64,000 nt of DNA, from positions 1-64,000 of IMG/VR virus record IMGVR_UViG_3300035034_002381; one strand, written 5' to 3'. This DNA is from a virus (Duplodnaviria; Heunggongvirae; Uroviricota; Caudoviricetes). The notes under the pieces were generated by a model. It was given only the letters and a program-made list of their open reading frames with translations, was not told where the DNA came from and did no database searches. Shown here piece after piece: positions 2,715-12,508 of this stretch; the first letter of the stretch is position 1, and each line of letters starts with the position of its first letter. The translations under genes and the position numbers were made by a program.

Positions 2715-3176
2715 ATGGTAGATTTCAACACAATCACAGAGAAAAACGAATCTGAAGCAAAAGCAAAATTCAGAGAAAATGGTACCGGAGTTAAAATGGG
2801 AACATTTGCTTCTGGTGACGAAAGCAAATGGGAAGATCTAATTAACACAGGTCTTTTCAGTAATCAAGCTATCAAAAACAGAATGCTTGACGTTGCACGC
2901 AGAATTAACACTATGTGTAATGACGAACTTTTAGGTAATCTTGACGTGGCTTTTACTGTTACTGATGCTCGTGATAATAAGGTGGAATTTACCTACATGG
3001 ATATTTATACTTTTTTACGAGCGGCATACCGTTACAGAAGTGAAACTAAGAATTATAGAGAAATGAAAGCTAGAAAAGCTGAACTTGAAAAATTCACTGA
3101 AGAAACTAAGACCGTAAAAGAAAAACGTGCTGAGGCACTCAAGGAACTTAAAGAACTTGAAAAGTCTCTTGCATAA
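2715..3176 (+). CDS. hypothetical protein with C-terminal coiled coil
   Basis: 153-aa ORF preceded by the promoter motif; no recognisable catalytic motif. Confidence 0.7.
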   Translation: MVDFNTITEKNESEAKAKFRENGTGVKMGTFASGDESKWEDLINTGLFSNQAIKNRMLDVARRINTMCNDELLGNLDVAFTVTDARDNKVEFTYMDIYTFLRAAYRYRSETKNYREMKARKAELEKFTEETKTVKEKRAEALKELKELEKSLA

Positions 3177-3334
3177 AAGTTTCTGTCTCTGGGAGACCTA
3201 ACACTGATGATGACAAGCGTCTTGAAAACCTATTTAATCCATAAACTTGGGAAGAAAATGAGAGTGAGTAACTCGAATGAATCGAATGTATGATTCAAAA
3301 GGTATTGGTAGGTTAATTCTTATCAATACCTCTA

Positions 3335-3428
3335 AAATTCTTCTTAGAATCCATAAAACTTAGCTCATTGGTTGGGCATTTGTATAAGAACAAAAGGAGC
3401 GGTTCAATTCCGTAGACTAGAAGAATTT
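3335..3428 (+). ncRNA. stem-closed tRNA-mimic RNA (Y-RNA/YrlA-like architecture), module 1
   Basis: 10-bp terminal helix aaattcttct/agaagaattt (3335-3344/3419-3428); encloses the CTTAGAATCCATAAAACT motif, D-arm-like gctc-attggtt-gggc, hairpin tttgt-ataaga-acaaa and T-arm-like gcgg-ttcaatt-ccgt. Confidence 0.4.
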
Positions 3429-3432
3429 AATT

Positions 3433-3556
3433 GCCGGGTTAGTGTAAGGGTCAACACACGTAAAGTAAACATAGTGAACTTTACGAATCACTTAGAATAA
3501 CTAACTATACAATCCATATGGAGGACGGATAACTGGTTCGAGTCCAGTGCCTGGCA
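3433..3556 (+). ncRNA. 124-nt tRNA-like RNA with a large insertion between anticodon-position hairpin and T-arm
   Basis: acceptor gccgggt/gcctggc, D gtgt-aagggtca-acac, 8-bp hairpin cgtaaagt/actttacg, 46-nt insert carrying CTTAGAATAACTAACT, T actgg-ttcgagt-ccagt. Confidence 0.4.
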
Positions 3557-3567
3557 CAAATTAAATT

Positions 3568-3620
3568 GCAGAGTGGTGTAGTGGCAGCACACGTAAACGC
3601 CGATTAGTGAAGCATTTACG
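3568..3620 (+). ncRNA. paralogous 5'-half tRNA-like fragment
   Basis: gcagagtggtgtagtggcagcacacgtaaa...tagtgaagcatttacg parallels the 5' half of 3433-3556 (D gtgt/acac, hairpin cgtaaa/tttacg); no T-arm follows. Confidence 0.3.
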
Positions 3621-3720
3621 TTACACTAAAAAATTGGCAAATCTCGTTCAAAAGAAATTTTCAAATGTAACAACAGAAATTGAAGATGTTGATGAATGGG
3701 TATATTTATATGTAAGAATT

Positions 3721-3752
3721 TAAAACTTTTTTCAAACTAAAGAATATAAAGA
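3721..3752 (+). promoter_or_regulatory. TAAAACTTT ... TATAAAG promoter-like motif driving the 3761-3894 RNA
   Basis: motif ends about 9 nt before the 18-bp terminal stem. Confidence 0.5.
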
Positions 3753-3760
3753 ACAATAAT

Positions 3761-3894
3761 ACCAATAAAAATTCGACTTAGAATACCTAAAACTAAAGTT
3801 TAAATTAGCTCATTGAGCATATTTTTTTTATAAATACGGTCTAGGTTAATCCCTAGAAATTCAAACGTTTAGTCGAATTTTTATTGGTTTTTTA
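3761..3894 (+). ncRNA. stem-closed tRNA-mimic RNA (Y-RNA/YrlA-like architecture), module 3
   Basis: perfect 18-bp terminal helix accaataaaaattcgact/agtcgaatttttattggt (3761-3778/3871-3888) followed by a T-run; encloses CTTAGAATACCTAAAACT, tagctcattgagca and T-arm-like tctagg-ttaatc-cctaga; has its own upstream promoter motif. Confidence 0.5.
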
Positions 3895-3900
3895 AAATAT

Positions 3901-3975
3901 TGCGGGGTGGACTGGAGTTGGATCCAGCTTGGTCTCATAAGCCAAATCACGGGAGTTCGAATCTCTCCCCCGCTA
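3901..3975 (+). tRNA. tRNA-Met(CAT) type, second initiator-like body
   Basis: acceptor tgcgggg/ccccgct with a T1.T72 mismatch, anticodon arm ttggt-ctCATaa-gccaa, T gggag-ttcgaat-ctctc. Confidence 0.75.
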
Positions 3976-4280
3976 CTTGTTAATAGGCATTTTATCAGTA
4001 ACACTGGAAGTTTTGGCCGAATAAATTAAAAAGTAAAATGTGTGTTCGTGTGTTAGTAAAGAGCTGCACGAATTAAATTTAATAAGTTCTGACTAGTGGT
4101 TTCGGTTTAATAGGGAAAGATACTTACCACTGAAAAAACTAAAATGTATACCCTGTAGATTTTCAATATTTATCTAACTAAATATTGCGTGTTAGAAAGT
4201 TCTAGATTAACTGTGCACAGGTTATTTAGTTCTTATAAATTTTAGAATGCACTTAACAATGTAGCGTTAATCTAAAAAAT

Positions 4281-4354
4281 GCCTCGGTAACTCAGTTGGT
4301 TAGAGTATCTGCTCGACATGCAGAAAGCCACAGGTTCGAATCCTGTTCGGGGTA
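4281..4354 (+). tRNA. tRNA-Val(GAC) with C at position 33
   Basis: acceptor gcctcgg/tcggggt (G.U rich), D actc-agttggtta-gagt, anticodon arm tctgc-tcGACat-gcaga, T acagg-ttcgaat-cctgt. Confidence 0.7.
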
Positions 4355-4384
4355 CTTATTCTACTTAGAATACTTAAACTTTAT

Positions 4385-4419
4385 AAATTGGTTCGATTCC
4401 AATTTTTATTGGTCTTTTT
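4385..4419 (+). terminator. T-arm-like hairpin terminator
   Basis: aaattgg-ttcgatt-ccaattt followed by ttattggtcttttt; its 3' flank repeats the aatttttattggt of the module 3 stem. Confidence 0.45.
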
Positions 4420-4528
4420 CTGTCAATTAAGTATCAAATAAATTTTTAATATATTGATTGATTTGAATATATTAAACAACCTCTCTTAGAAAATCTAAGT
4501 TAGAGAAGTTAAATCATCAAAAACAAAA

Positions 4529-6472
4529 ATGATGTCTACAAAAACAAAATCTTTATCAAAAGAAAGAGTTGCCTCTGTTTCAGGAGATAAACCAAGACTC
4601 CCAAGAACTCTTGAAACTCTTCAAGGTTTAAGAACAGCTCAAGGATTATCTGACGCGCAAATTGCGAATATGTTAGATAACGCATTATCAGAAACTTCAA
4701 GTAACCATATTATATATGTTCTTGAAAGATTAATGTTACACATTGGTGATGTGAGTCGACAACACAATATGTTGAAAGAATTGGGAATTAATTCTAAATC
4801 TGGTGGCGCACAAGAACGTGGGGTATTCCGATCTATTTTACGATGGTGGGAAAAAACTTTGCCTGAATCATTTGCAGAAAATCTTCGAGTATTCGCTGAA
4901 TTCTCAGTTTTGGAAAACTTGATGTTTTATGAACTTAAAACTGAAAGAGCAACTGGAAAATTAATTGGAAAGGAAATTTTGTTTCCTATGCCAAGTAAAG
5001 TACATGAATTTCTAGCGAACGAAATTCACAAAAATAGAAATGTGAATCTTATTGCTAAGCATTTACCAAAATATGACACTGGTAAAAGTCGAACCACTAA
5101 GAAAACCATGCATATTAAAGACGGTAAGGATAGTTTCATGTGGAAACTTCCTGAAGGTAAAGCTTGGGTTAAATTAAATGGTGATCTAATCGAAGGAGAA
5201 TCTGTTAAGATTACTCAAGGTGATGTAGTTTCATATCCTCGTGATAAATCTTCACATGTTTTAGAAAAACAAAGATTCGTTAATTCTTGGATTTCTAGTT
5301 TCTGTAAAGTTATGGGATGGTCAATTACTGATTATAACAATTTCCGTAAACAACAAAACACACCGGAACAAAAATTCTCAAGTAAACGTGTTTTAAACAT
5401 GCCGAAATCAGATTTCTGGAAAATGCTTGATGGTTTGACTTCTGGTCAAAGATACAGAGTTTCTAGAATGTTAGATTTCAATGCGGAAAAGTGGGGAGAA
5501 TTACCGAAATGGTATGATTTGTGGGAAGGTAACCAAGAAAAAGTAGCCGATAAACTTCGACAAGCTGCAGCTGATGGTGATACTGAAGCAACAGAAAAAT
5601 TGAAGAAAGAATTCAAGGTTAAATCTACTGGAAAAAACACTGTTGATTTATTGAAAGATATGTTAACAGGTAATCATGACGATAGATTCATTAACAACAC
5701 TTATCAATCTATGATTGAGAATATGGATATTGTTGCGAATGTTTTTCCAGTAATTGATGGTTCCGCATCTATGGATTGCCAAATTGGTGGAGGATGGAGT
5801 CCTCGAAGTTCTCGAAGTTCTACGGATAGACAACTTTCAAATAGAGCTGTCGCATATGCTATGGCAATTGCATTTTCTACTAGAAACCCAGTACCAGGAT
5901 TCCGTAACACGTTCGGATGGTTCTCCAGAAACTTTCACATTGTTGGAAAATCTAAGTATGTGAACAATGCACCTAATCAATACGTTGATTCTGGAAGTTA
6001 TACTAAAAAGGTTAATGAGTTCAATGTTTTATCTGAAACTAATACTTTCACTGAAAACTACTCAAACTTGAGAAAATCTGATCCAGGAGAAATATCATCT
6101 ACAAATATGGGTTCTGTGATTACTCACTTCACAAATTTAGTAGAAACTGGTAAATTTCATGTTGAGGATCTTCCATCTGCGTTACTTTTTATCACAGATA
6201 ATGAAAACAACACAGGAATTAGTCCGAAGGAAGCGTTGGCAATAGCTAACAAAATTGGATGGTCTCCATTGGTTATTTTCTGGGGGTTAACTAAAGTTCC
6301 AAGCAACATGATGAATCAGTATAAGGGAATTCCTAACTGCTTACTTGTTGGAGGATTTAATGAATCAGTACTTTCACAAGTACTTAGGGGTATTAAATCT
6401 GGTTCAGTTGATCCAGAGGATGAAATCTGGAGTATTGTCGAAAATAAAAGATATGCAGTAATTACTGAGTAA
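4529..6472 (+). CDS. Ro60/TROVE-like (or DUF2828-like) protein with C-terminal vWA domain
   Basis: 647-aa ORF; MIDAS-type DGSASM, SSTNMG, LLFITDNENNTG and VGGFNESVLSQV resemble, by eye, the Ro60 vWA motifs DVSASM, GGTDCS, TDNETFAG and CGFDTGALDV; helical N-terminal two thirds. Confidence 0.55.
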   Translation: MMSTKTKSLSKERVASVSGDKPRLPRTLETLQGLRTAQGLSDAQIANMLDNALSETSSNHIIYVLERLMLHIGDVSRQHNMLKELGINSKSGGAQERGVFRSILRWWEKTLPESFAENLRVFAEFSVLENLMFYELKTERATGKLIGKEILFPMPSKVHEFLANEIHKNRNVNLIAKHLPKYDTGKSRTTKKTMHIKDGKDSFMWKLPEGKAWVKLNGDLIEGESVKITQGDVVSYPRDKSSHVLEKQRFVNSWISSFCKVMGWSITDYNNFRKQQNTPEQKFSSKRVLNMPKSDFWKMLDGLTSGQRYRVSRMLDFNAEKWGELPKWYDLWEGNQEKVADKLRQAAADGDTEATEKLKKEFKVKSTGKNTVDLLKDMLTGNHDDRFINNTYQSMIENMDIVANVFPVIDGSASMDCQIGGGWSPRSSRSSTDRQLSNRAVAYAMAIAFSTRNPVPGFRNTFGWFSRNFHIVGKSKYVNNAPNQYVDSGSYTKKVNEFNVLSETNTFTENYSNLRKSDPGEISSTNMGSVITHFTNLVETGKFHVEDLPSALLFITDNENNTGISPKEALAIANKIGWSPLVIFWGLTKVPSNMMNQYKGIPNCLLVGGFNESVLSQVLRGIKSGSVDPEDEIWSIVENKRYAVITE

Positions 6473-6492
6473 TCTTAATTTTCAAATTACTA

Positions 6493-6522
6493 AGGAGAGG
6501 CATTTTTGCCTCTCCTTTTTTT
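6493..6522 (+). terminator. intrinsic terminator
   Basis: aggagaggc-attttt-gcctctcct followed by a T-run. Confidence 0.8.
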
Positions 6523-6527
6523 ATGTT

Positions 6528-6556
6528 TAAAACTATATCAATCTTAGATATATAAT
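6528..6556 (+). promoter_or_regulatory. TAAAACT ... CTTAGATATATAAT promoter-like motif
   Basis: near-identical 40-nt block recurs at 22859-22900. Confidence 0.55.
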
Positions 6557-6576
6557 ACAAATAAATTAAATTAAAT

Positions 6577-7140
6577 ATGAAAAATGTAAAAAACTTTCGT
6601 GAGTTTCTGAACGAGAATCGAGTCGAAAAGAGATTAGCTAGTCTGGACGCAGAATATACTATTGACAAAAAGTTGTGTAAACAATTAATGGATGTGGGAG
6701 AGCAAATAGATTATATATACAATAATTTAGATTTGCCACACTCTGACTTTGCCACTTCTAATTTTATACCACCCGAAATTGAAAACGATGATAAAACAGC
6801 GAGTGATTGGGTAGAATCTGAGAAGGCTCTTATAAGAAGTGAACTAAAATCTAAAGAATCTGAATATAAAAAAATTCTTAGAAAAATACAATCTAAACAT
6901 TCGTATATTAATGATGTAATTGAATATCTTAATCAAACTAATTTAGGTTTTACTTTAGAAAATACATTTATTGATAAAATAAACAGAAGAAATGATATCA
7001 TAAATACTGTTGTAATAAAAAGTTGGTATGGGTATGCTAAAGCTTCAAGAAAAGAATTAGAAAGATATAAAATAACACCTGAGCAACTTGCAGGTACTAT
7101 ATTATCAATGCGAGCAGTCGCTGATGAACTAACATATTAG
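6577..7140 (+). CDS. hypothetical protein with CTS-like N-terminal leader (MKNVKNFREFLNE)
   Basis: 187-aa ORF; leader resembles the T4 capsid targeting sequence MKTYQEFIAE. Confidence 0.7.
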   Translation: MKNVKNFREFLNENRVEKRLASLDAEYTIDKKLCKQLMDVGEQIDYIYNNLDLPHSDFATSNFIPPEIENDDKTASDWVESEKALIRSELKSKESEYKKILRKIQSKHSYINDVIEYLNQTNLGFTLENTFIDKINRRNDIINTVVIKSWYGYAKASRKELERYKITPEQLAGTILSMRAVADELTY

Positions 7141-7224
7141 TAATAAAGTACTAAGTGATATTTGTAAACAATTAAAAAATAAGAATATCGAATGTGGCTT
7201 TGATGATGCATTCGACCCTAGTTA

Positions 7225-7425
7225 ATGGAAAGTTTTAAAAGTATACTCGAATCTAAAGATTCTGATAAACTCGCAAAAGAGATCAATAATGCAATCATTA
7301 AAATTGATGATTCTATGTCATACAAAGATTTTGCAGCTGCAGTTATCAAAATAATGAAAGAAGAATACGGAGAACACCTATATACAGAATTCTTAGGAAT
7401 TTTACAAAAAAATCTAAAGAAATGA
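7225..7425 (+). CDS. small hypothetical protein (MESFKSILESK, weak CTS-like)
   Basis: 66-aa ORF; ATGA overlap with the next start. Confidence 0.6.
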   Translation: MESFKSILESKDSDKLAKEINNAIIKIDDSMSYKDFAAAVIKIMKEEYGEHLYTEFLGILQKNLKK

Positions 7426-7790
7426 AGACTTTTAAAGAATTTATAAACGAATCGGAATATATGGTGGTGAATGGAAAGAAAACGCCGAGATAACAGCTAG
7501 ACAATTATCTTCTGGGTTGGTTATTAGCATTGAACCTACAAAAATAAAAGTATTAGTTAGTACATCATCAGAACTAGATATCGATGTTTTAATGTCTAAC
7601 AATGATAAAATTGAATATAGAAGTTATAGACGACTCGCCGTATACAAAACCAGGATCTACACAAAGTTTTATTAGAATAAAACTGAATGGAAAAACTATA
7701 TATGAAGATAAAGGAGCTAATTATGCCGACGCACCAAGTGACGAGATTATTAGAGCTTATGAAGAGGTGTATAAAATTAGATCCAAATAG
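7422..7790 (+). pseudogene. frame-split CTS-family gene (MKTFKEFINESE...)
   Basis: the reading frame passes from frame 0 (7422-7493) to the -1 frame (open 7436 to about 7670) and back to frame 0 (7602-7790); only the first segment has a start codon. Confidence 0.35.
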
Positions 7791-7839
7791 GGAATACGTT
7801 TGCTTCTATACACAATAATTCAAAATATAAGACTTGAAA

Positions 7840-8004
7840 ATGAAAAGATTTTTTAGAGTTGCTAGTATTACATCATTAATTGTTCTGTGTCTATTCACAT
7901 TTTTAATGCACGCGTTTCCATGGGAATGGTCAACTGATATTAGATTATATTGCATATTCACAATGGTTTCTTCATCGATTGTCGCGTATTTCGTAAGCCG
8001 TTAA
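7840..8004 (+). CDS. small membrane protein
   Basis: 54-aa ORF below the track cutoff; two hydrophobic helices; followed by a strong terminator. Confidence 0.5.
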   Translation: MKRFFRVASITSLIVLCLFTFLMHAFPWEWSTDIRLYCIFTMVSSSIVAYFVSR

Positions 8005-8026
8005 TAAAATTTAACATATAGATAAC

Positions 8027-8056
8027 AGTGGGACTTTTATAGTCCCACTTTTTTTG
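8027..8056 (+). terminator. intrinsic terminator
   Basis: agtgggact-tttat-agtcccact followed by a T-run. Confidence 0.8.
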
Positions 8057-8091
8057 TTTATATTTATACTGAATTTAAAAACTCAAAATAA

Positions 8092-8265
8092 ATGTCAAGA
8101 GAAAATATGGATTATATGGGCGATGCAGTCTACGCAGAATACACGGGATGGTCAATTGATTTACGAGTCAATGATCATCGGAATCCTGTCGCTGTCGTTT
8201 TAGAAGAACTAGTCTTACAAAATTTAGTCGATTTTGCTAGACGAAAAGGTCTTAAAATCAAATAA
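8092..8265 (+). CDS. small hypothetical protein
   Basis: 57-aa ORF MSRENMDYMGDAVYAEY..., immediately upstream of 8274. Confidence 0.45.
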   Translation: MSRENMDYMGDAVYAEYTGWSIDLRVNDHRNPVAVVLEELVLQNLVDFARRKGLKIK

Positions 8266-8273
8266 ATTATGAA

Positions 8274-8636
8274 ATGAAAGTAATTTATTCTGCAGTTTTT
8301 GTTGATAAGTCTACCCTTATAAAAAAATTTAAACCGGTATTTGATAACATTCATGCTCATCACATGACTATTGAATTTAGACCAGAATCAACAGATAATC
8401 TGGATATTGACAAAAATTACAAATTGAAAATTATCGGTAGATTAATTACAGACAAAGTTGATGTTCTTCTTGTTGATGATGGAGGCATCAGTAAAAATGA
8501 ATTCCCACACATTACAATTTCTATAGCTGATGGTGTTAGGCCTTTCGAAAGTAATACCGAAATCAAAAATAATTATTCCAAAATAACTAAACTTCGTGGA
8601 GAAATAACAGGCAAAATCGGAGTTTTCACCGCATAA
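8274..8636 (+). CDS. 2H phosphoesterase superfamily protein (LigT/CPDase/Acb1-like)
   Basis: two H-x-T-x motifs (HHMTIEF and PHITISI) about 60 aa apart in a 120-aa protein. Confidence 0.6.
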   Translation: MKVIYSAVFVDKSTLIKKFKPVFDNIHAHHMTIEFRPESTDNLDIDKNYKLKIIGRLITDKVDVLLVDDGGISKNEFPHITISIADGVRPFESNTEIKNNYSKITKLRGEITGKIGVFTA

Positions 8637-8645
8637 ATCTTAACT

Positions 8646-8870
8646 ATGAAAAAGGTAACATTTCTAATTTTAATATTGTTCAACATTAATTTATGGGCAC
8701 AAGAACAACCAGATACAGTTTATGTTCTGAAAAGTTTTACAGTCAAAGGTGTGAGAGCTGATCCTAAAACACCGATCACACAAAAAACAATAGACAAGAA
8801 ATTTATTGAACGCAATTATTTTGGTCAAGAAATTCCTATTCTTTTAAATACCACACCATCAATAAATTAG
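8646..8870 (+). pseudogene. N-terminal fragment of a TonB-dependent receptor (signal peptide plus start of plug domain)
   Basis: MKKVTFLILILFNINLWAQ signal, then VKGVRADPKTPITQKTI...GQEIPILLNTTPSIN; stops after 74 aa, whereas full receptors are 700+ aa. Confidence 0.55.
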
Positions 8871-8949
8871 GTATGGAAAAATCTCAAGACTTTGAACCAA
8901 CCGAACCAGAAGAAATGTATTAAAATAATTGAAAATAACTCTTCCAGAT

Positions 8950-8982
8950 TAAAACTTTTTGATTACTTTTGTATATATACTG
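8950..8982 (+). promoter_or_regulatory. TAAAACTTT ... TATATATA promoter-like motif
   Basis: upstream of a 29-codon ORF and tRNA island 2. Confidence 0.45.
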
Positions 8983-9118
8983 TATATTTAAACAAACAAT
9001 AATGAAAACACAAATCAACATAACTACCAGTTATTCTTTAAGAAGCTTATGTACGTCGCTGAGACTATATGAGACAGGGTATCTATGTTGATCAAACATA
9101 TTTTTGATTACAAACTAA

Positions 9119-9150
9119 ACCCTGTCTATTTAATTAGACAGGGTTTTTTT
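9119..9150 (+). terminator. intrinsic terminator
   Basis: accctgtcta-tttaat-tagacagggt followed by a T7 run. Confidence 0.8.
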
Positions 9151-9154
9151 ATTT

Positions 9155-9245
9155 GGAAGATAAAGCAGCTGCATTGGAGCGGCGACTAGCCTTGAAAACT
9201 AGGTCTCGGAGAAATCTGGGTGGGGTTCGAGTCCTCTGTCTTCCT
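9155..9245 (+). tRNA. tRNA-Ser(TGA)
   Basis: acceptor ggaagat/gtcttcc, anticodon loop ctTGAaa, long variable arm, T gggg-ttcgagt-cctc. Confidence 0.75.
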
Positions 9246-9277
9246 CAAAGTTTTAGTTCATTGACATATTAATATTA

Positions 9278-9361
9278 GAGGATGCGGTAATGGTGGTTAT
9301 TACAGTATCTTGGAAAGGTACCGATCGTTTATTCGGTCAGGGTTCGACTCCCTCATCCTCT
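9278..9361 (+). tRNA. tRNA-Ser(GGA)
   Basis: acceptor gaggatg/catcctc, anticodon arm gtatc-ttGGAaa-ggtac, variable arm gatcg-tttatt-cggtc, T aggg-ttcgact-ccct; ends uncertain by 1 nt. Confidence 0.75.
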
Positions 9362-9365
9362 GCTA

Positions 9366-9488
9366 TGTTCTTCTTAGAATAACTAATTTATGTAAATGTG
9401 AGTTCGAATCTCATCAAATGCTTTTAGCATCTGTAGCCAAATGGTTAGGCAATATACTTGAAATATATAACAAACGATTAGAAGAACA
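9366..9488 (+). ncRNA. circularly permuted tRNA-like element closed by a 9-bp leader-trailer helix
   Basis: order: helix 5' strand tgttcttct, CTTAGAATAACTAATTT, T-arm gtgag-ttcgaat-ctcat, capped acceptor hairpin caaatgc-tttta-gcatctg, ta, D-arm gcc-aaatggtta-ggc, anticodon arm atata-ctTGAaa-tatat, helix 3' strand agaagaaca. Confidence 0.5.
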
Positions 9489-9492
9489 ACAT

Positions 9493-9565
9493 GCTTCCAT
9501 AGTATAAAGGTTCATTATTCCTGTTTTGTAATCAGGCGATATCGGTTCGATTCCGATTGGGAGCT
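9493..9565 (+). tRNA. tRNA-Thr(TGT)
   Basis: acceptor gcttcca/tgggagc, anticodon loop ttTGTaa (31-39 T.T), T atcgg-ttcgatt-ccgat. Confidence 0.75.
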
Positions 9566-9714
9566 CAATGAATATGATGTTTATTTAGATCCTAAAAATG
9601 ATTATCTTATTGGTATAGATAGTAAAAAAATTGAAAAGGTCGAAGAATTGTATAATGTGCGTAATAATAGACAAGGATAATTTATCTTGGAATGATATTC
9701 AAAATAAAATAAAT

Positions 9715-9795
9715 GTTTCAGTGGTGGAATGGTAGACACGTCGGTCTTAGGAACCGATGCCGAAAGGCGTGAGAGTTCGAGTCTCTCCTGGAATA
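9715..9795 (+). tRNA. tRNA-Leu(TAG), canonical class II
   Basis: acceptor gtttcag/ctggaat, D gtgg-aatggtag-acac, anticodon arm tcggt-ctTAGga-accga, variable arm tgccgaaaggcgt, T gagag-ttcgagt-ctctc. Confidence 0.8.
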
Positions 9796-9796
9796 C

Positions 9797-9876
9797 ACTC
9801 TGGTGGATTAGGTAAATTGGTACAGCTAAACGGCTTAGACCCGTATCCCTTCTGGGTTCGAATCCCAGTCAGAGTA
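9797..9876 (+). tRNA. atypical 80-nt tRNA, anticodon TAG (Leu codons), expanded D region, short variable region
   Basis: acceptor actctgg/tcagagt, D region tggattaggtaaattggtacagctaa, anticodon arm acgg-ctTAGac-ccgt, T ctggg-ttcgaat-cccag, A73. Confidence 0.55.
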
Positions 9877-9881
9877 CAAAT

Positions 9882-9961
9882 GCTCCTGTGGTTTATGTAA
9901 ATTGGCACAGCTAAGCGGCTTAAACCCGCAACCTTTATGGGTTCGAGTCCCATCAGGAGTA
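9882..9961 (+). tRNA. atypical 80-nt tRNA, anticodon TAA (Leu codons), same family
   Basis: acceptor gctcctg/caggagt, D region tggtttatgtaaattggcacagctaa, anticodon arm gcgg-ctTAAac-ccgc, T atggg-ttcgagt-cccat, A73. Confidence 0.55.
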
Positions 9962-10056
9962 CAAAAGTTTATCAACGTCTTGAGTCAAGTTGGATGATGA
10001 CAAAAAGGCTAACGGCAGAAGTGAATCCATCGCACTGTGTTACATAAACTTTATCT

Positions 10057-10129
10057 GGCCAGGATTCTCAATTGGACGGGACTCTGTCTTCTAAACAGAT
10101 GTTTGTGGGTTCGAATCCCATCTTGGTCT
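10057..10129 (+). tRNA. tRNA-Arg(TCT)
   Basis: acceptor ggccagg/cttggtc, D tctc-aattggac-ggga, anticodon arm tctgt-ctTCTaa-acaga, T gtggg-ttcgaat-cccat. Confidence 0.85.
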
Positions 10130-10135
10130 CTAAAC

Positions 10136-10209
10136 GCAGGTATACCTAAGTGGTTTAAAGGAGCGGATTGCAAACCCGTTATTCATTGGTTCGAATCCAA
10201 TTACCTGCT
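10136..10209 (+). tRNA. tRNA-Cys(GCA)
   Basis: perfect acceptor gcaggta/tacctgc, anticodon loop ttGCAaa, T attgg-ttcgaat-ccaat. Confidence 0.8.
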
Positions 10210-10214
10210 CACTT

Positions 10215-10297
10215 GGAAGGTAACTTGATGGTGATAGAGGTAGTTTGCTAAACTACTGGCCGTTTACTCGGTCGAGGTTCGATTCCTCTGCCTTCCG
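10215..10297 (+). tRNA. tRNA-Ser(GCT)
   Basis: acceptor ggaaggt/gccttcc, anticodon arm gtagt-ttGCTaa-actac, variable arm ggccg-tttact-cggtc, discriminator G. Confidence 0.8.
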
Positions 10298-10301
10298 CTA
10301 T

Positions 10302-10379
10302 GCTCCTGTGGATTATGTAAAAGCACAGCTAACACCTTGAGGAGGTGATCCTTTGTGGGTTCGAGTCCCGCCAGGAGTA
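10302..10379 (+). tRNA. atypical 78-nt tRNA, anticodon GAG (Leu codons), same family
   Basis: acceptor gctcctg/caggagt, D region tggattatgtaaaagcacagctaa, anticodon arm cacc-ttGAGga-ggtg, T gtggg-ttcgagt-cccgc, A73. Confidence 0.55.
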
Positions 10380-10382
10380 CAA

Positions 10383-10476
10383 AGAAGCAAAGAGTTAGTT
10401 AGGTTAGACTGGCTTGTTATGTGGTGAAATTGGTAAACGCGAGCGCTTTGGTGCTTAGTAACCTTAACACTTCTTA
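10383..10476 (+). ncRNA. tRNA-derived fragment (Leu-type D-arm, no T-arm) flanked by 6-bp complementary ends
   Basis: aagaag/cttctt ends; internal gtggtgaaattggtaaacgc resembles the Leu D-arms at 9715 and 10788. Confidence 0.3.
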
Positions 10477-10479
10477 TTT

Positions 10480-10553
10480 GCTGAGTTAGTATAGTCGGTT
10501 TATTACGATACCCTGGTACGGTATTAACACCAGTTCGATTCTGGTACTCAGCT
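10480..10553 (+). tRNA. tRNA-Thr(GGT)
   Basis: perfect acceptor gctgagt/actcagc, anticodon arm atacc-ctGGTac-ggtat, T accag-ttcgatt-ctggt. Confidence 0.8.
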
Positions 10554-10565
10554 CATGAAAAATAT

Positions 10566-10645
10566 GCCTCTGTGGATTATGTAAATTGGCACAGCTAACG
10601 GTTTCAAACTCCGATCTTTTATGGGTTCGAATCCCATCAGAGGCA
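10566..10645 (+). tRNA. atypical 80-nt tRNA, anticodon CAA (Leu codons), same family
   Basis: acceptor gcctctg/cagaggc, D region tggattatgtaaattggcacagctaa, anticodon arm cgg(t)-ttCAAac-(t)ccg, T atggg-ttcgaat-cccat, A73. Confidence 0.5.
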
Positions 10646-10661
10646 CAAGTAGGAGAAATTT

Positions 10662-10746
10662 AGTCCAGTGGCGAAACAGGTATACGCACAAGATTTAAGC
10701 TCTTGCTTCCATTGAGGAATTGCGGGTTCGATTCCCGCCTGGATTA
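10662..10746 (+). tRNA. tRNA-Leu(TAA), canonical class II
   Basis: acceptor agtccag/ctggatt, D gcga-aacaggtata-cgc, anticodon arm caaga-ttTAAgc-tcttg, long variable arm, T gcggg-ttcgatt-cccgc. Confidence 0.8.
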
Positions 10747-10749
10747 CTA

Positions 10750-10781
10750 AGTTAGTACGGGTTCGATCCCCGTCTTGGCTA
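10750..10781 (+). ncRNA. second tRNA-like minihelix (acceptor-like stem plus T-arm)
   Basis: agttag/ttggct (wobble-rich) enclosing acggg-ttcgatc-cccgt; no D or anticodon arm. Confidence 0.35.
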
Positions 10782-10787
10782 CTAAAT

Positions 10788-10899
10788 TTGACCGTGGTGA
10801 AATTGGTAAACACACCCTTAAATCAGGGAGTATGAGAATATGTACTTGAAGCTGACGCAGAACATCATACATATGTAGGTTCGAATCCTATCGGTCGAA
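10788..10899 (+). ncRNA. 112-nt tRNA-like RNA (Leu-type D-arm) with a roughly 46-nt extra arm
   Basis: acceptor ttgaccg/cggtcga, D gtg-aaattggtaaa-cac, weak anticodon-position hairpin ccct-taaatc-aggg, extra hairpin atatgta...tacatat, T gtagg-ttcgaat-cctat. Confidence 0.45.
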
Positions 10900-10904
10900 C
10901 AAAT

Positions 10905-10978
<74 letters not shown>

Positions 10979-10983
10979 CTATC

Positions 10984-11013
10984 TAAAACTTTATTCAATT
11001 TCCATAATATAAT
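10984..11013 (+). promoter_or_regulatory. TAAAACTTT ... TAATATAAT promoter-like motif
   Basis: immediately after the last tRNA, upstream of the ATG at 11035. Confidence 0.5.
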
Positions 11014-11034
11014 GTGTAACTAAACTTTATAGAA

Positions 11035-11205
11035 ATGGAAAAAATACTAATGTCTGAAATTTTGACTTATGACAACTTCGACGACGGTTTACCTGAAGAA
11101 TATGAATTTGTCGATTCTGAACAAACATATTTTGATGGTGAAAAAGGCTTTGTTAATATCGAAGCTATTATCAGAAGAGAATCAGACTCACAATTTTTAA
11201 AGTAA
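11035..11205 (+). CDS. small acidic protein; possible -1 frameshift extension to 11333
   Basis: 56-aa ORF ending caa ttt tta aag taa; T_TTA_AAG heptamer at 11196-11202; the -1 frame stays open for 43 further codons. Confidence 0.45.
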   Translation: MEKILMSEILTYDNFDDGLPEEYEFVDSEQTYFDGEKGFVNIEAIIRRESDSQFLK

Positions 11206-11260
11206 AATACACCGATTATGGAAAAGGTGAAAATGATCTTATGGAAAGTGTGGGCGAACC

Positions 11261-11326
11261 TGTAACTCAAAAATCCAAAACAATTTTCTACTATGTAACT
11301 CAAAAATCCAAAACAATTTTCTACTA
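11261..11326. repeat. perfect 33-bp tandem duplication
   Basis: tgtaactcaaaaatccaaaacaattttctacta occurs twice (11261-11293 and 11294-11326); encodes VTQKSKTIFYY twice in the -1 frame. Confidence 0.95.
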
Positions 11327-11598
11327 TGAATAGTATGACCTTTTTATTAGGCATTACGTATGTTATCGGATACTTTTTAAGTATCATAATCCTAAAAAGA
11401 TTTCACCATATTTTGGATATTCCAGATTATAATTCATATCCAAAATATAATGAATATTCAAGCAATGCACAAGCATACACAATGTGGTCAATTGTATGGC
11501 CGTTATTTTGGGTCTTAAAAATCATAGTTCTTCTTTTCGAAAAACTTATTAATTTAACTAAATATATACTAAATGGAAACTCAAGCTCAAGAAAGTAA
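11326..11598 (+). CDS. small membrane protein
   Basis: 90-aa ORF with two or three hydrophobic segments. Confidence 0.6.
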   Translation: MNSMTFLLGITYVIGYFLSIIILKRFHHILDIPDYNSYPKYNEYSSNAQAYTMWSIVWPLFWVLKIIVLLFEKLINLTKYILNGNSSSRK

Positions 11599-12508
11599 TA
11601 GAATAATCAAAGAAATTCATTCTTCTTTTTATTCAATGGATCAAGAAACTGATACATATCTTCAACGCCAAATTCAAGCTGCGTATGACGAATCTATCAA
11701 AGGCTCTTTAGAGAAGACTATCAAAAAATATGGTTTTAATAATGCCAAAAACTCTGACATTTTTGATAAAGCATTACTTGAAAGTCGGGAAGAATTAAAT
11801 GATGTCTTAAACGAATGTTCAGTGACATATCCAGGTAAAAAGTTTATTACTGATGAACAAATAGCACAGCTTTGTATCAAATATAATTTATTACTAACAA
11901 CACCAGATAGATTTATTGGTGAAATACCAGAACGTAATATCCAAGAGTTGAACGACTTTAATCCAAAAGGTAGCGAAAAAAAGGCGTTTTTTGATCCCAA
12001 AGTTTTTTATAAATTATATAACTTTATAAGAGAATATGAAGAGAAGCATTATTATATGAATAAAAATCTAAAAAAATCTATTGCAATGATTTATCGATCA
12101 TTTATGAATCATAGTAACATGGATTCAATACTTTTTCCAGATAATAATAAATATATTGTTCATGGTGTCAATGAAGATAAATCAATCACCACAACTGAAT
12201 TAGGTATTCAAACAGCAAAGAAAATATCTGAAGAATTATCTAAGAAAGAAAGAAATTCTGTACCTATTTTACCGTTGTTTTCACAAACTATGATAGCAGC
12301 GACATCTGATTTACTTGATATTCCTAAACTAGGATTGATCAAGAATAAAAGAAATGAACTTGTTTTAGGTCTTAATTCAAAACAATTTAAAGAAAATTTT
12401 CTACCTGATCCAATTGTACTACATAAAGTAAAACGTGGTGCTATTATTATAACTGCTTGGGGCTTGGAATCTCAAGATGAACTAGTATTCAATCCTATTA
12501 TTAATTGA
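11573..12508 (+). CDS. hypothetical protein
   Basis: 311-aa ORF; no motif recognised. Confidence 0.75.
   Translation: METQAQESNRIIKEIHSSFYSMDQETDTYLQRQIQAAYDESIKGSLEKTIKKYGFNNAKNSDIFDKALLESREELNDVLNECSVTYPGKKFITDEQIAQLCIKYNLLLTTPDRFIGEIPERNIQELNDFNPKGSEKKAFFDPKVFYKLYNFIREYEEKHYYMNKNLKKSIAMIYRSFMNHSNMDSILFPDNNKYIVHGVNEDKSITTTELGIQTAKKISEELSKKERNSVPILPLFSQTMIAATSDLLDIPKLGLIKNKRNELVLGLNSKQFKENFLPDPIVLHKVKRGAIIITAWGLESQDELVFNPIIN

What the first reader, a model, noticed from the sequence alone, without database searches (positions are those of the whole stretch)
10788..10899. Oversized tRNA-like genes with roughly 46-nt insertions before the T-arm (also 3433-3556, with a half-copy at 3568-3620)
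Seen in sequence: both genes have good acceptor, D and T arms. However, they have an abnormal anticodon-position hairpin (ccct-taaatc-aggg; cgtaaagt-11 nt-actttacg) followed by about 46 nt that can form its own hairpin (atatgta/tacatat). Lengths are 112 and 124 nt. The insert at 3433-3556 carries the CTTAGAATA motif.

Inference: these are not group I introns, which would be much larger. They could be tRNA-derived regulatory RNAs, hosts of small insertion elements, or substrates of an unknown processing pathway.
Basis: seen in the sequence. Interest (0 to 1): 0.5.

Follow-up and report, generated by a model that had tools for sequence, protein, structure and literature searches.

The report
Phage tRNA mimics with extra arms
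Two oversized tRNA-like genes in a large phage's tRNA cluster are real, conserved non-coding RNAs: one carries a stem-loop module shared with a family of small RNAs that sit just upstream of a hidden Ro60-type RNA-binding protein gene, resembling a Y-RNA system, and the other is a leucine-tRNA look-alike with a non-decoding anticodon loop and a giant conserved extra arm.

Summary
Both elements exist as described and are not chance or debris, but they are two different things.

**E2 (3433-3556)**
- It is a complete tRNA scaffold with a 52-nt insert on the 5' side of the anticodon arm, not before the T-arm.
- Removing the insert in silico gives a canonical 72-nt cloverleaf.
- The insert is a conserved module: a hairpin ending in CU, followed by UAGAAUAA.
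- The same module also occurs free-standing. It is then closed by a strongly covarying 7-9 bp stem around small hairpins, acceptor-less tRNA bodies or permuted tRNAs.
- Such units occur at about 1.9 per kb in the 1 kb upstream of ORF 4529-6472 and its homologues, against about 0.05 per kb elsewhere.
- Best reading: a new, topologically permuted Y-RNA-like family partnered with a cryptic phage Ro60.

**E1 (10788-10899)**
- It is a tRNA-Leu-derived RNA with a 6-nt loop (UAAAUC) and a 41-nt arm.
- An orthologue in a diverged phage shows 11 compensatory pairs and a 25/29-identical loop.
- It is conserved, cannot decode normally, and its function is unknown.

The half-copy at 3568-3620 is a deletion remnant.

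The parts
10788..10899 (+). E1: a tRNA-Leu-like non-coding RNA of 112 nt. Acceptor 10788-94 / 10892-98; D-arm 10797-10813; discriminator A at 10899.
   Evidence: Rfam tRNA 35.7 bits. An orthologue at L164 1561-1672 and a near-identical copy at L001 17784-17893. All 25 pairs are kept and 11 change on both sides. Model R1 scores 134-139 bits for these three only; the next best hits are tRNA-Leu(UAA) genes at 39 bits.
10815..10828 (+). E1 hairpin at the anticodon position: CCCU / UAAAUC / AGGG, a 4-bp stem with a 6-nt loop.
   Evidence: L164 has CCUU UAAAUC AAGG. One pair covaries (C-G to U-A) and the 6-nt loop is identical. No canonical 7-nt loop can be drawn.
10830..10870 (+). E1 enlarged arm: a 6-bp stem GUAUGA/UCAUAC closing a 29-nt loop (10836-10864), followed by a 4-nt linker (10871-74) and the T-arm (10875-91).
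   Evidence: The stem covaries at two pairs (GA/UC to AG/CU). The loop is 25/29 identical between lineages whose neighbouring protein is 59% identical. All window-versus-L001 differences inside E1 lie in this loop or the linker and T-stem edge.
3433..3556 (+). E2: a tRNA scaffold of 124 nt carrying the CUUAGAAUA module. Acceptor 3433-39 / 3549-55; D-arm 3442-57; nt 27-28 = 3459-60; the rest of the anticodon arm 3513-27 (loop 3516-22); variable loop 3528-31; T-arm 3532-48.
   Evidence: Own scan. Removing 3461-3512 in silico gives a 72-nt sequence that ARAGORN calls as a tRNA; the same works for 15 of 19 family members. It is 99.2% identical in L001, and the single difference falls at predicted anticodon position 34 (3518, A versus U).
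3461..3512 (+). E2 insert (52 nt). It holds the module hairpin AGUGA (3473-77) / UCACU (3488-92), followed by UAGAAUAA (3493-3500) and an A-rich tail. An alternative 8-bp hairpin can form between 3459-66 and 3478-85.
   Evidence: The same layout ((U)UAG-stem-loop-stem-CUUAGAAUAA) occurs in E2-type genes of L007, L009, L010, L012, L016, L018, L021, L023, L026 (two copies), L030, L036, L040 (two copies) and L004. The stem sequences differ between them: AAG/CUU, UG/CA, GUGG/CCAC, AGA/UCU, AAAG/CUUU.
3568..3627 (+). Truncated second E2-type copy: the 5' 60 nt only.
   Evidence: 100% identical to L001 8725-8784. L001 continues with the module, an anticodon arm (CG|insert|ACA pairing with UGUCG, loop CUCAUAA), a T-arm and the acceptor 3' strand. 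The window lacks L001 8785-9055.
3338..3425 (+). Free-standing module unit (E3): closing stem UUCUUCU / AGAAGAA, then UAGAAUCCAUAAAAC, then a tRNA body (D, anticodon and T arms) with no acceptor stem.
   Evidence: Rfam tRNA 22 bits for model positions 6-65. A 7/7 partner preceded by U-AG. The minimum-energy fold gives exactly this layout.
3772..3877 (+). Free-standing module unit: closing stem AUUCGACU / AGUCGAAU around degenerate hairpins.
   Evidence: 8/8 partner at +94. Fold z-score -2.3.
4479..4508 (+). Mini module (CCUCUCU UAGAAAAUCUAAGU UAGAGAAG) 20 nt upstream of the Ro60-like ORF.
   Evidence: Equivalent units overlap the start codon in L036 and L037.
4529..6472 (+). Ro60-like protein of 647 aa: an N-terminal helical ring plus a C-terminal vWA domain with the MIDAS motif DGSGSM.
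9368..9486 (+). Free-standing module unit that encloses a circularly permuted tRNA: T-arm, an acceptor hairpin closed by UUUUA, D-arm and anticodon arm. The closing stem is GUUCUUCU / AGAAGAAC.
   Evidence: Read directly from the sequence. 8/8 partner at +107. Fold.

Best explanation
The window comes from a large T4-like phage known only from metagenomes. Both elements are genuine, selectively maintained, tRNA-shaped non-coding RNAs, but they are of two kinds.

**E2 (3433-3556)**

E2 is a complete tRNA body with natural tRNA ends. A 52-nt module has been grafted onto the 5' side of its anticodon stem.

*Shown:*
- The module is a short helix ending in C-G and U-A pairs, followed on the 3' strand by single-stranded UAGAAUAA and an A-rich, G-poor tail.
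- The same module is the signature of a multi-copy RNA family. Members occur 3-5 times within about 1.5 kb upstream of ORF 4529-6472 in every related phage examined.
- In the free-standing members the helix is the 5'/3' closing stem. The interior is a pair of small hairpins, an acceptor-less tRNA body or a permuted tRNA.
- E2 is the circular permutation of that plan: the helix is capped by a loop and the RNA ends sit at the acceptor stem.
- The ORF folds like Ro60.

*Inferred:*
- These RNAs are the Y-RNA equivalents of this cryptic Ro60.
- The helix plus UAGAAUA internal loop would be the protein-binding site. It would correspond to the stem plus CGAA bulge of bacterial and phage Y RNAs.
- The tRNA-shaped part would be the effector or mimic domain, as in YrlA. 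It could bring tRNA-handling enzymes, or a tRNA-like substrate, to the Ro ring during infection. This would plausibly serve tRNA quality control or repair for the phage's own large tRNA set.

**E1 (10788-10899)**

E1 is a separate, lineage-restricted RNA derived from a class II tRNA-Leu.

*Shown:*
- It keeps the acceptor stem, discriminator A73, a Leu-type D-arm and the T-arm.
- Its anticodon-position hairpin has a conserved 6-nt loop, so it cannot decode normally.
- It has a 41-nt arm whose 29-nt loop is conserved in sequence.

*Inferred, weakly:* it acts as a tRNA mimic that displays this loop to a partner. Whether that partner is the Ro-like protein is open.
For: **E1**
- It exceeds the Rfam tRNA gathering score.
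- The orthologue L164 1561-1672 lies next to a protein 59% identical to window ORF 11573-12508.
- Across the three known copies all 25 pairs are kept and 11 change on both sides, including 6 of 7 acceptor pairs. None of 500 shuffles reaches this. Sliding the partner strand drops pairing to 31-54%.
- The 6-nt loop is identical and the 29-nt loop is 25/29 identical.
- Apart from the three copies, the best hits of model R1 are tRNA-Leu(UAA) genes.

**E2**
- At least 17 distinct oversized tRNA-like genes of 108-137 nt, with different acceptor stems, all carry the motif.
- In-silico removal of the insert restores a 5/5 anticodon stem in 18 of 19, and ARAGORN of 19 as tRNAs.
- In four members the insert splits the stem at positions 28/29, with covariation: CG..UCC/GGACG, CG..ACA/UGUCG, GC..UCC/GGAGC.

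**Module family**
- There are 45 unique exact CTTAGAATA sites on the gene strand across the 44 loci, against only 2 found on the other strand.
- 50 of 58 strict sites have a complementary partner, and the base before the partner is U in 84% of cases against 30% in controls. The closing stems use 18 different 5-mers.
- RNAalifold recovers the closing stem with 6 of 8 pairs compensatory.
- Unit density is 1.94 per kb in the 1 kb upstream of the ORF, 0.56 per kb in the next kb, and 0.13 per kb or less elsewhere within 10 kb on either side.

**Protein**

**Precedent**
- Y RNAs lie next to Ro60 genes in bacteria and phages, contain tRNA-like domains, and M. smegmatis YrlA is cut by RNase P and receives CCA (PMC4201824).
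- Thermus phage phiLo has two Y-like RNAs upstream of its Ro60, each with a 5'-3' stem and a CGAA bulge (PMC12135203).
Against: - No binding or expression data exist. The RNA-protein link rests on position and analogy.
- The motif CUUAGAAUA is not the GNCGAAN0-1G / CGAA motif of known Y RNAs.
- Rfam YrlA does not match any of these units. Its only weak hits straddle adjacent ordinary tRNAs.
- The protein has no sequence-detectable TROVE domain.
- All loci were fetched through the Ro-like gene, so I did not test whether the module occurs in phages that lack that gene.
- Most E2-type members keep canonical anticodon loops with U33 and R37, which a pure mimic would not obviously need.
- Two motif-bearing tRNA-likes present in L001 are missing or truncated in the window, so individual copies are dispensable.
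- E1 lacks the motif. The core C0 and U2 positions are not kept, and L164 has GGAAUA. E1 lies 4.3 kb downstream of the ORF, so placing it in the same system is conjecture.
Confidence: 0.55

Rival explanations
1. The E2-type genes are true decoding tRNAs interrupted by a new kind of protein-dependent mini-intron of 37-58 nt at non-canonical positions (26/27, 28/29, 31/32). The CUUAGAAUA module would be the recognition handle for excision and religation. This might involve the Ro-like protein together with phage RNA-repair enzymes such as the Pnkp-like ORF at 35015-35989.
For: - Removing the insert gives perfect 70-73 nt cloverleaves, and ARAGORN of 19 as tRNAs.
- The anticodon stem is maintained across the insert by covariation.
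- Most predicted loops have U33 and R37.
- The only window-versus-L001 difference in E2 is at anticodon position 34.
- A kinase/phosphatase ORF resembling polynucleotide kinase-phosphatase, and a 3'-5' exoribonuclease, lie in the window.
Against: - The same module closes RNAs that can never become tRNAs: small two-hairpin RNAs, acceptor-less bodies and permuted tRNAs. Those tRNA bodies also have canonical anticodon loops, so such loops do not imply decoding.
- Some members have odd loops: A33 in L007, C33 or G33 in L026a, and C37 in L009.
- Anticodons at the syntenic position vary freely (UCC, UAG, AUG/UUG, AAU, AAA, UAC, UAU, UGA), and some have A34.
- No uninterrupted homologue of any exon pair was found in the 400+ loci held.
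- No splicing endonuclease or ligase was seen in the window.
- No bulge-helix-bulge motif is evident by inspection.
Confidence: 0.15
2. CTTAGAATA is a DNA-level or processing signal: a phage promoter, or an endonuclease site that separates tRNAs from mRNAs. The oversized tRNA-likes merely happen to contain it.
For: - The motif is strictly strand-specific and followed by an A-rich, G-poor stretch.
- It often sits 9-10 nt after a tRNA 3' end, and 15-140 nt upstream of the Ro-like start codon.
- TAGAAT resembles a -10 hexamer.
Against: - The 7-9 nt immediately upstream of UAGAAUA covary with a distal partner. They are therefore transcribed and paired, which a -10 element would not require.
- The acceptor stems of the E2-type genes enclose the motif, so it lies inside the RNA.
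- The distance from the motif to any candidate -35 sequence varies from 11 to 20 nt.
- In the 53 kb of protein-coding sequence the motif is essentially absent from intergenic regions. The only near-match is TGAGAATAA at 17063.
- Cleavage at the motif is not excluded and could coexist with the main explanation.
Confidence: 0.1
3. Both elements are decaying pseudo-tRNAs and recombination debris in a highly dynamic tRNA array.
For: - The array contains clear fragments: the half-copy at 3568-3627, a 5' fragment at 10405-10479, a 3' half at 10748-10781 and T-arm-only hairpins.
- The window and its 99% relative differ by indels that remove motif-bearing copies.
Against: - E1 has 11 compensatory pairs, and its loops are conserved more strongly than its stems between diverged phages.
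- E2-type genes and module units recur with covariation in every lineage sampled, down to 41-48% protein identity.
Confidence: 0.05

Closest known systems
Bacterial and phage Y RNAs of the YrlA type (Rfam RF02553; Chen et al. 2014, PMC4201824; phiLo Yrl1/Yrl2, PMC12135203)
   Same: - They are encoded in tandem directly upstream of a Ro60-type gene.
- They are about 60-135 nt long.
[quoted passage not shown]
- Phage examples are known.
- M. smegmatis YrlA is even cut by RNase P and given CCA, so it ends up with tRNA-like termini.
   Different: - Rfam YrlA gives no match.
- The motif is CUUAGAAUA, not GNCGAAN0-1G.
- In E2 the topology is permuted at the gene level. The ends are at a 7-bp acceptor stem with a discriminator base, the protein-binding-type stem is capped, and it emerges at tRNA positions 26-29 instead of replacing the anticodon loop.
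- An intact anticodon arm is retained.
- The partner protein is Ro60-like only by fold.
- Up to 5-7 units occur per locus, with very varied interiors.
Intron-containing tRNA genes (archaeal bulge-helix-bulge introns at non-canonical positions; bacterial and phage group I introns in tRNA)
   Same: An intervening segment interrupts a tRNA gene. Removing it restores a canonical cloverleaf. Insertion positions vary among genes.
   Different: - At 37-58 nt the insert is far too short for group I, and no ribozyme family matches.
- No bulge-helix-bulge motif is seen.
- The insert lies on the 5' side of the anticodon stem.
- The identical module also occurs outside any tRNA exon context.
Class II tRNA-Leu (for E1)
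   Same: - A 7-bp acceptor stem and discriminator A.
- A 3-bp D-stem with an 11-nt D-loop of the type (A)AAUUGGUAAA.
- A canonical T-arm and an extra arm between the anticodon and T arms.
- After E1's own three copies, the best hits of model R1 are tRNA-Leu(UAA) genes.
   Different: - The anticodon hairpin has 4 bp and a 6-nt loop, conserved as UAAAUC.
- The extra arm is 41 nt, a 6-bp stem with a 29-nt sequence-conserved loop, instead of about 13-21 nt.
- A 4-nt linker precedes the T-stem.
Phage T4 stable RNAs C and D (species 1 and 2) encoded in the T4 tRNA cluster (recalled from memory, not checked here)
   Same: RNAs of about 120-140 nt and unknown function, co-encoded and co-processed with phage tRNAs in a T4-type genome.
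   Different: No sequence or structure comparison was made. No Ro60 association is known for T4.
Circularly permuted tRNA genes (Cyanidioschyzon merolae) and two-piece or permuted tmRNA
   Same: Units such as 9368-9486 have the T-arm and 3' acceptor strand upstream of the 5' acceptor strand, D-arm and anticodon arm.
   Different: Here the acceptor is closed by a 5-nt loop and the ends pair in the module stem. There is no evidence of maturation into a tRNA. ARAGORN finds no tmRNA.

Membership tests
tRNA (Rfam RF00005), applied to E1 | Score at or above the family gathering threshold | tested here: met
   35.7 bits against a threshold of 29, matching model positions 1-71, with a 43-nt insertion in the variable region.
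tRNA (functional decoder), applied to E1 | A 5-bp anticodon stem with a 7-nt loop, U33 and a purine at position 37 | tested here: not met
   The stem has 4 bp and the loop 6 nt (UAAAUC), conserved in the L164 orthologue. No insert removal restores a canonical arm. ARAGORN without the intron option finds nothing.
tRNA (cloverleaf), applied to E1 | Acceptor, D and T helices supported by covariation, and tertiary-contact nucleotides present (U8, A14, G18G19, T-loop UUCGAAU) | tested here: met
   All pairs are kept. Pairs changed on both sides: 6 of 7 in the acceptor, 1 of 3 in the D-stem and 1 of 5 in the T-stem. The tertiary-contact nucleotides were read from the sequence.
tRNA, applied to E2 | Recognised as a tRNA by standard tools | tested here: not met
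   Neither ARAGORN nor Rfam gives a hit on the native sequence. It is called as a tRNA only after in-silico removal of 3461-3512.
Y RNA / YrlA | Encoded next to a Ro60 orthologue gene | tested here: met
   E2 lies 973 nt upstream of ORF 4529-6472. Module units reach 1.94 per kb in the first upstream kb against about 0.05 per kb elsewhere. The ORF model matches Ro60 best.
Y RNA / YrlA | The partner protein has a TROVE domain detectable by sequence | tested here: not met
   No Pfam, NCBIfam or PDB-sequence hit to TROVE or Ro60, apart from one family member hitting vWA_Ro60 at E = 0.005. The similarity is structural only.
Y RNA / YrlA | A stem formed by the RNA's 5' and 3' ends that carries the conserved GNCGAAN0-1G (CGAA) motif | tested here: not met
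   Free-standing units do have a 5'/3' stem with a conserved internal-loop motif, but the motif is CUUAGAAUA. In E2 the stem is capped and the RNA ends are at the acceptor.
Y RNA / YrlA | A tRNA-like domain with D and T arms | tested here: met
   E2, E3, the unit at 9368-9486 and many units in other loci have D and T arms.
Y RNA / YrlA | Match to the Rfam YrlA covariance model | tested here: not met
   The only hits are 21.8-24.6 bits (gathering score 69) and straddle pairs of ordinary tRNAs. Nothing matches at E2, E3 or E1 proper.
Y RNA / YrlA | Physical binding to Ro60 | not testable with these tools
   This needs EMSA, co-purification or structure determination.
Group I intron in tRNA | A ribozyme core of about 200 nt or more (P1-P9) | tested here: not met
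   The inserts are 37-58 nt and no Rfam intron hit was found.
Archaeal-type tRNA intron | A bulge-helix-bulge motif at the exon-intron boundaries, and a splicing endonuclease | tested here: inconclusive
   No 3-4-3 bulge-helix-bulge could be drawn by inspection for E2, L026b or L040b. No formal search was run. No EndA-like ORF appeared among the 37 window ORFs scanned, but only 64 kb of the genome is held.
tmRNA | A tRNA-Ala-like domain (G3:U70), a tag reading frame and pseudoknots | tested here: not met
   ARAGORN finds no tmRNA. E1 has G3-C70 or A3-U70. The short ORF in the E1 loop is not conserved: in L164 it stops after 2 codons.

The most novel reading that the evidence does not exclude
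The E2-type genes are working tRNAs that carry a protein-recognised mini-intron at positions 26-32. This would be a new bacterial-virus tRNA splicing or "handle" system. The cryptic Ro60 homologue would bind the CUUAGAAUA module on precursor or damaged tRNAs and license their excision, ligation or repair. The free-standing units would be competitors or regulators of that pathway. E1 would be a leucylatable but non-decoding tRNA used off the ribosome.
Probability: 0.1. Interest if true: 0.85.

Novelty: new variant of a known kind. Interest (0 to 1): 0.62.

Why it matters
**A hidden Ro60 family.** If the reading is right, a whole clade of uncultivated T4-like phages carries a Ro60/Y-RNA system that sequence-based annotation misses on both sides. 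The protein has no TROVE hit and the RNAs match no Rfam family. The protein family already has 95 clusters at 38-99% identity.

**Natural topological variants.** The RNAs are natural circular permutations of the Y-RNA plan. The same protein-binding-type module is joined in different ways to whole tRNAs, acceptor-less tRNA bodies and permuted tRNAs.

**An open question becomes testable.** This variety offers a way to ask what the tRNA-like half of bacterial Y RNAs is for.

**Phage tRNA arrays.** The system would tie Ro60 to phage tRNA arrays and RNA-repair genes, which bears on phage counter-measures against host tRNA-cleaving defences.

**Annotation.** E1 adds a conserved tRNA-Leu derivative that standard tools either miss or mislabel. 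This is a caution for tRNA counts in phage genomes.

Tried and rejected
1. **Group I intron or known ribozyme.** Rfam scans at E <= 1-10 over 1-12000 and over both elements gave only tRNA-type hits.
2. **tmRNA or mini-tmRNA.** There is no ARAGORN tmRNA call, no Ala identity pair and no conserved tag frame.
3. **Close relatives in reference phages.** Megablast of 1-12000 found nothing. tblastn of the Ro-like protein found no match in 50,697 records.
4. **Single-protein searches of viral contigs.** They found nothing. An alignment-based search was needed.
5. **CTTAGAATA as a general promoter.** Rejected: the motif is absent from intergenic regions of the 53-kb coding part, and the nucleotides upstream of it covary with a partner.
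6. **More E1 orthologues.**
   - The patterns GGTGAAATTGGTAAAC, GAAGCTNACGCAGAA and ACTNGAAGCTNACGCAGAA were searched in viral contigs, and the last also in genome contigs. They gave only chance hits apart from L001 and L164.
   - Loci found through the RNaseH-like neighbour gave only other oversized Leu-like RNAs.
   - The neighbouring 311-aa protein has just two homologue clusters.
7. **An antisense target for the E1 loop in the window.** None was found.
8. **Uninterrupted homologues of the E2-type exons.** None was found.
9. **ARAGORN with the intron option.** It gives inconsistent, mostly spurious solutions, for example E2 as Tyr(AUA) and E1 as Phe(GAA).
10. **MAFFT plus RNAalifold on the in-silico spliced set.** It recovers the acceptor, anticodon and T helices but misregisters several anticodon stems. 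I rely on the rule-based parse instead.
11. **E1 as a member of the CUUAGAAUA family.** Rejected: the invariant C0 and U2 positions are not kept, and L164 has GGAAUA.
Full report
**Setting**

- The first 11 kb of the window hold two tRNA blocks with 21 ARAGORN tRNAs, all on the + strand.
- Downstream lie phage genes: a prohead protease, a Gp23-type major head protein, a homing endonuclease, NAMPT and others.
- There is no nucleotide match to deposited phages. The only protein similarity is weak, to Lak, Tenacibaculum and Flavobacterium phages.
- A 99% relative (L001) and many more distant relatives exist in metagenomes.

**Checking the observation**

- Both elements sit at the stated coordinates with the stated lengths.
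- ARAGORN misses both.
- Rfam's tRNA model accepts E1 at 35.7 bits (gathering score 29). It places about 43 nt as an insertion in the variable region and aligns a shortened anticodon hairpin.
- E2 gets no Rfam hit. The neighbouring 3359-3415 body scores 22 bits.
- My own scan required a 5-bp T-stem, a T-loop, a 7-bp acceptor and a D-arm. It recovers E1 (111 nt) and E2 (123 nt) as the only oversized candidates in the window.

**E2 is a member of a widespread class**

- The same scan was run over 44 loci fetched through homologues of ORF 4529-6472. It found oversized tRNA-like genes of 108-127 nt directly upstream of that ORF in diverged phages, and all of them contain CTTAGAATA or a one-base variant.
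- A motif-anchored search raised this to at least 17 distinct sequences with unrelated acceptor stems, including GGGGGGU, GCGGAUG, AGGGGUA, GGAGGGA, GCGGCGU and GCCGGGU.
- A rule-based parse shows that the extra 37-58 nt always lie on the 5' side of the anticodon arm.
  - In some members the insert sits between nt 26 and 27.
  - In E2, L001 copy 2, L026b and L040b it splits the stem after nt 28.
  - In L040a it sits at the loop edge.
- After removing the insert, 18 of 19 have a 5/5 anticodon stem, and ARAGORN of 19 as ordinary 70-73 nt tRNAs.
- For E2 the layout is as follows.
  - CG at 3459-60 plus UCC at 3513-15 pair with GGACG at 3523-27.
  - The anticodon loop is AUAUGGA.
  - The variable loop is GAUA.
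  - The T-arm is 3532-48.
- The single difference between the window and L001 in E2 is at predicted position 34.

**What the insert is**

- Around CTTAGAATA the conserved positions are AAAU-n-n-C-(A/U) upstream and an A-rich, almost G-free tail downstream. There is no -35-like block.
- Exact sites number 45 unique contexts on the gene strand, against only 2 found on the other strand.
- In E2-type genes the CU of the motif and the 3-4 nt before it pair with a segment a few nucleotides upstream that is preceded by (U)UAG. The stem sequences differ between genes: AAG/CUU, UG/CA, GUGG/CCAC, AGA/UCU, AAAG/CUUU.
- In many other sites the partner lies 40-112 nt downstream instead.
  - The 7-9 nt ending in CU pair with a segment that starts with AG and is preceded by U.
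  - Eighteen different 5-mers are used in these closing stems.
  - Examples are UUUCACU/AGUGAAA, ACUCACU/AGUGAGU, CGUCGCU/AGCGACG, ACCCUACU/AGUAGGGU and GUUCCUCU/AGAGGAAC.
- Of 58 strict sites, 50 have a partner, and the preceding base is U in 84% of cases against 30% for control sites.
- RNAalifold on 13 such units predicts the closing stem with 6 of 8 pairs compensatory.
- What is enclosed varies.
  - Two small hairpins, giving an RNA of about 65 nt.
  - A tRNA body with no acceptor stem: window 3338-3425, L007 9749-9849, L008 9018-9136.
  - A permuted tRNA whose acceptor is closed by a loop: window 9368-9486, L040 689-810, L036 101-217.
- E2 is therefore the circular permutation of the free-standing plan. 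The module helix is capped and the RNA ends are at the acceptor.
- Because the nucleotides just upstream of UAGAAUA covary with a partner, the motif is part of an RNA structure and not merely a -10 box. It is also essentially absent from intergenic regions in the remaining 53 kb.

**Link to ORF 4529-6472**

- Module units occur at 1.94 per kb in the 1 kb upstream of this ORF and its homologues, at 0.56 per kb in the next kb, and at 0.13 per kb or less elsewhere within 10 kb on either side. Some near-duplicate loci are included in these counts.
- In L036 and L037 a unit spans the start codon. In the window a mini unit lies 20 nt upstream of the ORF.
- The protein family has 95 clusters at 38-99% identity.
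  - It shows no Pfam, NCBIfam or PDB-sequence similarity to TROVE.
  - It has an invariant DGSGSM MIDAS motif.
  - vWA hits appear in 8 of 23 members, and one member hits vWA_Ro60.
- The AlphaFold model has pLDDT 84 and pTM 0.82.
  - Its top Foldseek PDB matches are Ro60 structures aligned over about 660 columns.
- So the N-terminal ring, and not just the vWA domain, is Ro60-like.

**Comparison with known biology**

- Bacterial and phage Ro60 genes are flanked by Y RNAs.
  - These consist of a 5'/3' stem with a conserved GNCGAAN0-1G motif and, in YrlA, a tRNA-like domain.
  - M. smegmatis YrlA is cut by RNase P and receives CCA (PMC4201824).
- Thermus phage phiLo has two Y-like RNAs upstream of its Ro60. 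Each has a stem flanking a bulge with CGAA, and they assemble with host PNPase (PMC12135203).
- A review of jumbo phages notes TROVE proteins with "a tRNA-like partner" in a subset of them (PMC7824862).
- The family here fits this logic: position, modularity, a tRNA-like domain and several paralogues.
- It differs in motif, in failing the Rfam YrlA model, in the variety and permutation of topologies, and in the divergence of the protein.
- I therefore say it works like a Y-RNA system and call it a new variant. I do not file it as a YrlA member.

**E1 is something else**

- It has no CUUAGAAUA module. Its best approximation, AUGAGAAUAU, lacks the invariant C and U.
- Its D-arm (GUG AAAUUGGUAAA CAC) and discriminator A are of the tRNA-Leu type. 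Apart from E1's own three copies, the best hits of model R1 are tRNA-Leu(UAA) genes.
- The 99% relative L001 differs from the window within E1 by two substitutions and a 2-nt deletion. These all lie in the 29-nt loop or at the linker and T-stem edge.
- The decisive datum is the orthologue at L164 1561-1672, found through the neighbouring protein, which is 59% identical.
  - Every acceptor pair differs from E1 on at least one side, 6 of 7 on both sides, and all remain paired.
  - The D, hairpin, arm and T stems each show compensatory changes.
  - The 6-nt loop UAAAUC is identical.
  - The 29-nt loop GAAUAUGKACUWGAAGCURACGCAGAAYA is 25/29 identical.
- Overall, 100% of cells pair and 11 of 25 pairs change on both sides. 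None of 500 shuffles reaches this, and sliding the partner strand gives 31-54% pairing.
- This rules out a pseudogene.
- No canonical anticodon loop can be restored, so E1 is not a normal decoder.
- No further orthologues were found, and the loop has no antisense target in the window.
- Looser analogues exist.
  - L004 17952-18054 has a 4-bp hairpin, then GAGAAUAU, then an 8-bp hairpin.
  - L419 and L420 carry 150-nt Leu-like RNAs with arms of about 85 nt.
- The function of E1 is open.
  - E. coli LeuRS does not read the anticodon (established knowledge, not tested here).
  - A leucylatable non-decoding tRNA mimic is therefore conceivable.

**The half-copy**

- Window 3568-3627 equals L001 8725-8784.
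- L001 continues with the module, an anticodon arm (CG|insert|ACA pairing with UGUCG, loop CUCAUAA), a T-arm with a bulged U and the acceptor 3' strand.
- The window lacks L001 8785-9055, which also removes the start of a 94-aa ORF.
- Another motif-bearing tRNA-like gene, L001 5925-6037, is also absent from the window.
- Individual copies are therefore dispensable.

**Verdict**

- The interpretation "tRNA-derived non-coding RNAs" is supported. "Same class" is not.
- The most likely mechanism for E2 is a Y-RNA-like partner of a cryptic phage Ro60 (about 0.55). Rivals are a mini-intron (0.15), a processing or promoter signal (0.10) and debris (0.05).
- E1 is a conserved tRNA-Leu mimic of unknown function.

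Noticed in passing
window 9797-9875, 9882-9961, 10302-10380, 10566-10645: Four paralogous 79-nt tRNA-Leu-like genes with anticodons UAG, UAA, GAG and CAA. They have a short variable region but an unusually long D region (GUGGAUUAUGUAAAUUGGCACAGCUAA). ARAGORN calls only one of them, and Rfam scores them at 24-34 bits. L164 carries orthologues at 2-81, 885-966 and 1351-1430.
   Followed up: partly
window 304-348: A "minihelix": a perfect 7-bp acceptor stem (AUUCAGA/UCUGAAU) directly enclosing a T-arm, with no D or anticodon arm. It lies between tRNA-Met and tRNA-Tyr.
   Followed up: no
window 10405-10479 and 10748-10781: tRNA fragments. The first is a 5' fragment that shares 18 nt (GUGGUGAAAUUGGUAAAC) with E1. 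The second is an isolated T-arm plus 3' acceptor strand just upstream of E1. Both are conserved in L001.
   Followed up: partly
window 4364-4410; L025 524; L028 9886; L004 16357; L036 106: CTTAGAATA directly after a tRNA 3' end, followed 14-25 nt later by a lone T-arm or by an acceptor plus T-arm minihelix. The window copy has no closing-stem partner.
   Followed up: partly
L036 1121-1183, L037 725-788; window 4479-4508: A module unit encloses or immediately precedes the start codon of the Ro60-like gene. This suggests the protein could bind its own mRNA leader (autoregulation).
   Followed up: no
window 35015-35989 and 33398-34009: One ORF has a P-loop kinase domain (AAA_33 / Zeta_toxin / KTI12) plus an NT5C/HAD phosphatase domain, resembling polynucleotide kinase-phosphatase. 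The other is an Rv2179c-like 3'-5' exoribonuclease. Both are candidate RNA-repair or RNA-turnover partners.
   Followed up: no
window 3359-3415; L001 16383-16463; L004 7481-7555 and 19568-19656; E2-type loops in L009, L010, L012: Many predicted anticodons begin with unmodified-type A34 (AAG, AAC, AUU, AAU, AAA, AUG), which is unusual for bacterial-type tRNAs.
   Followed up: no
L004 14326-14396: ARAGORN predicts a suppressor tRNA (anticodon UUA, reading UAA) in a relative's tRNA array. This hints at stop-codon reassignment or suppression in that lineage.
   Followed up: no
L419 4605-4752; L420 12337-12486; L004 17952-18054; L025 4322-4531: Further oversized tRNA-like genes without the module. 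Two are 150-nt tRNA-Leu-like RNAs with structured variable arms of about 85 nt. One is a 103-nt RNA with GAGAAUAU and an 8-bp hairpin. One is a 210-nt candidate.
   Followed up: partly
window 1135-1165, 3722-3760, 8945-8990, 10985-11020 and others: The motif TAAAACTTT recurs and is followed 12-15 nt later by a TATAAT-like hexamer, upstream of gene blocks. It is probably the phage's host-type promoter signal. The generic sigma-70 scan found no more sites than shuffled sequence gave.
   Followed up: no
window 21117-22802: A 561-aa homing/HNH endonuclease ORF (phrog_3339) lies immediately after the major head protein gene. Relatives such as L004 have several HNH and GIY-YIG genes interspersed among their tRNAs.
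   Followed up: no
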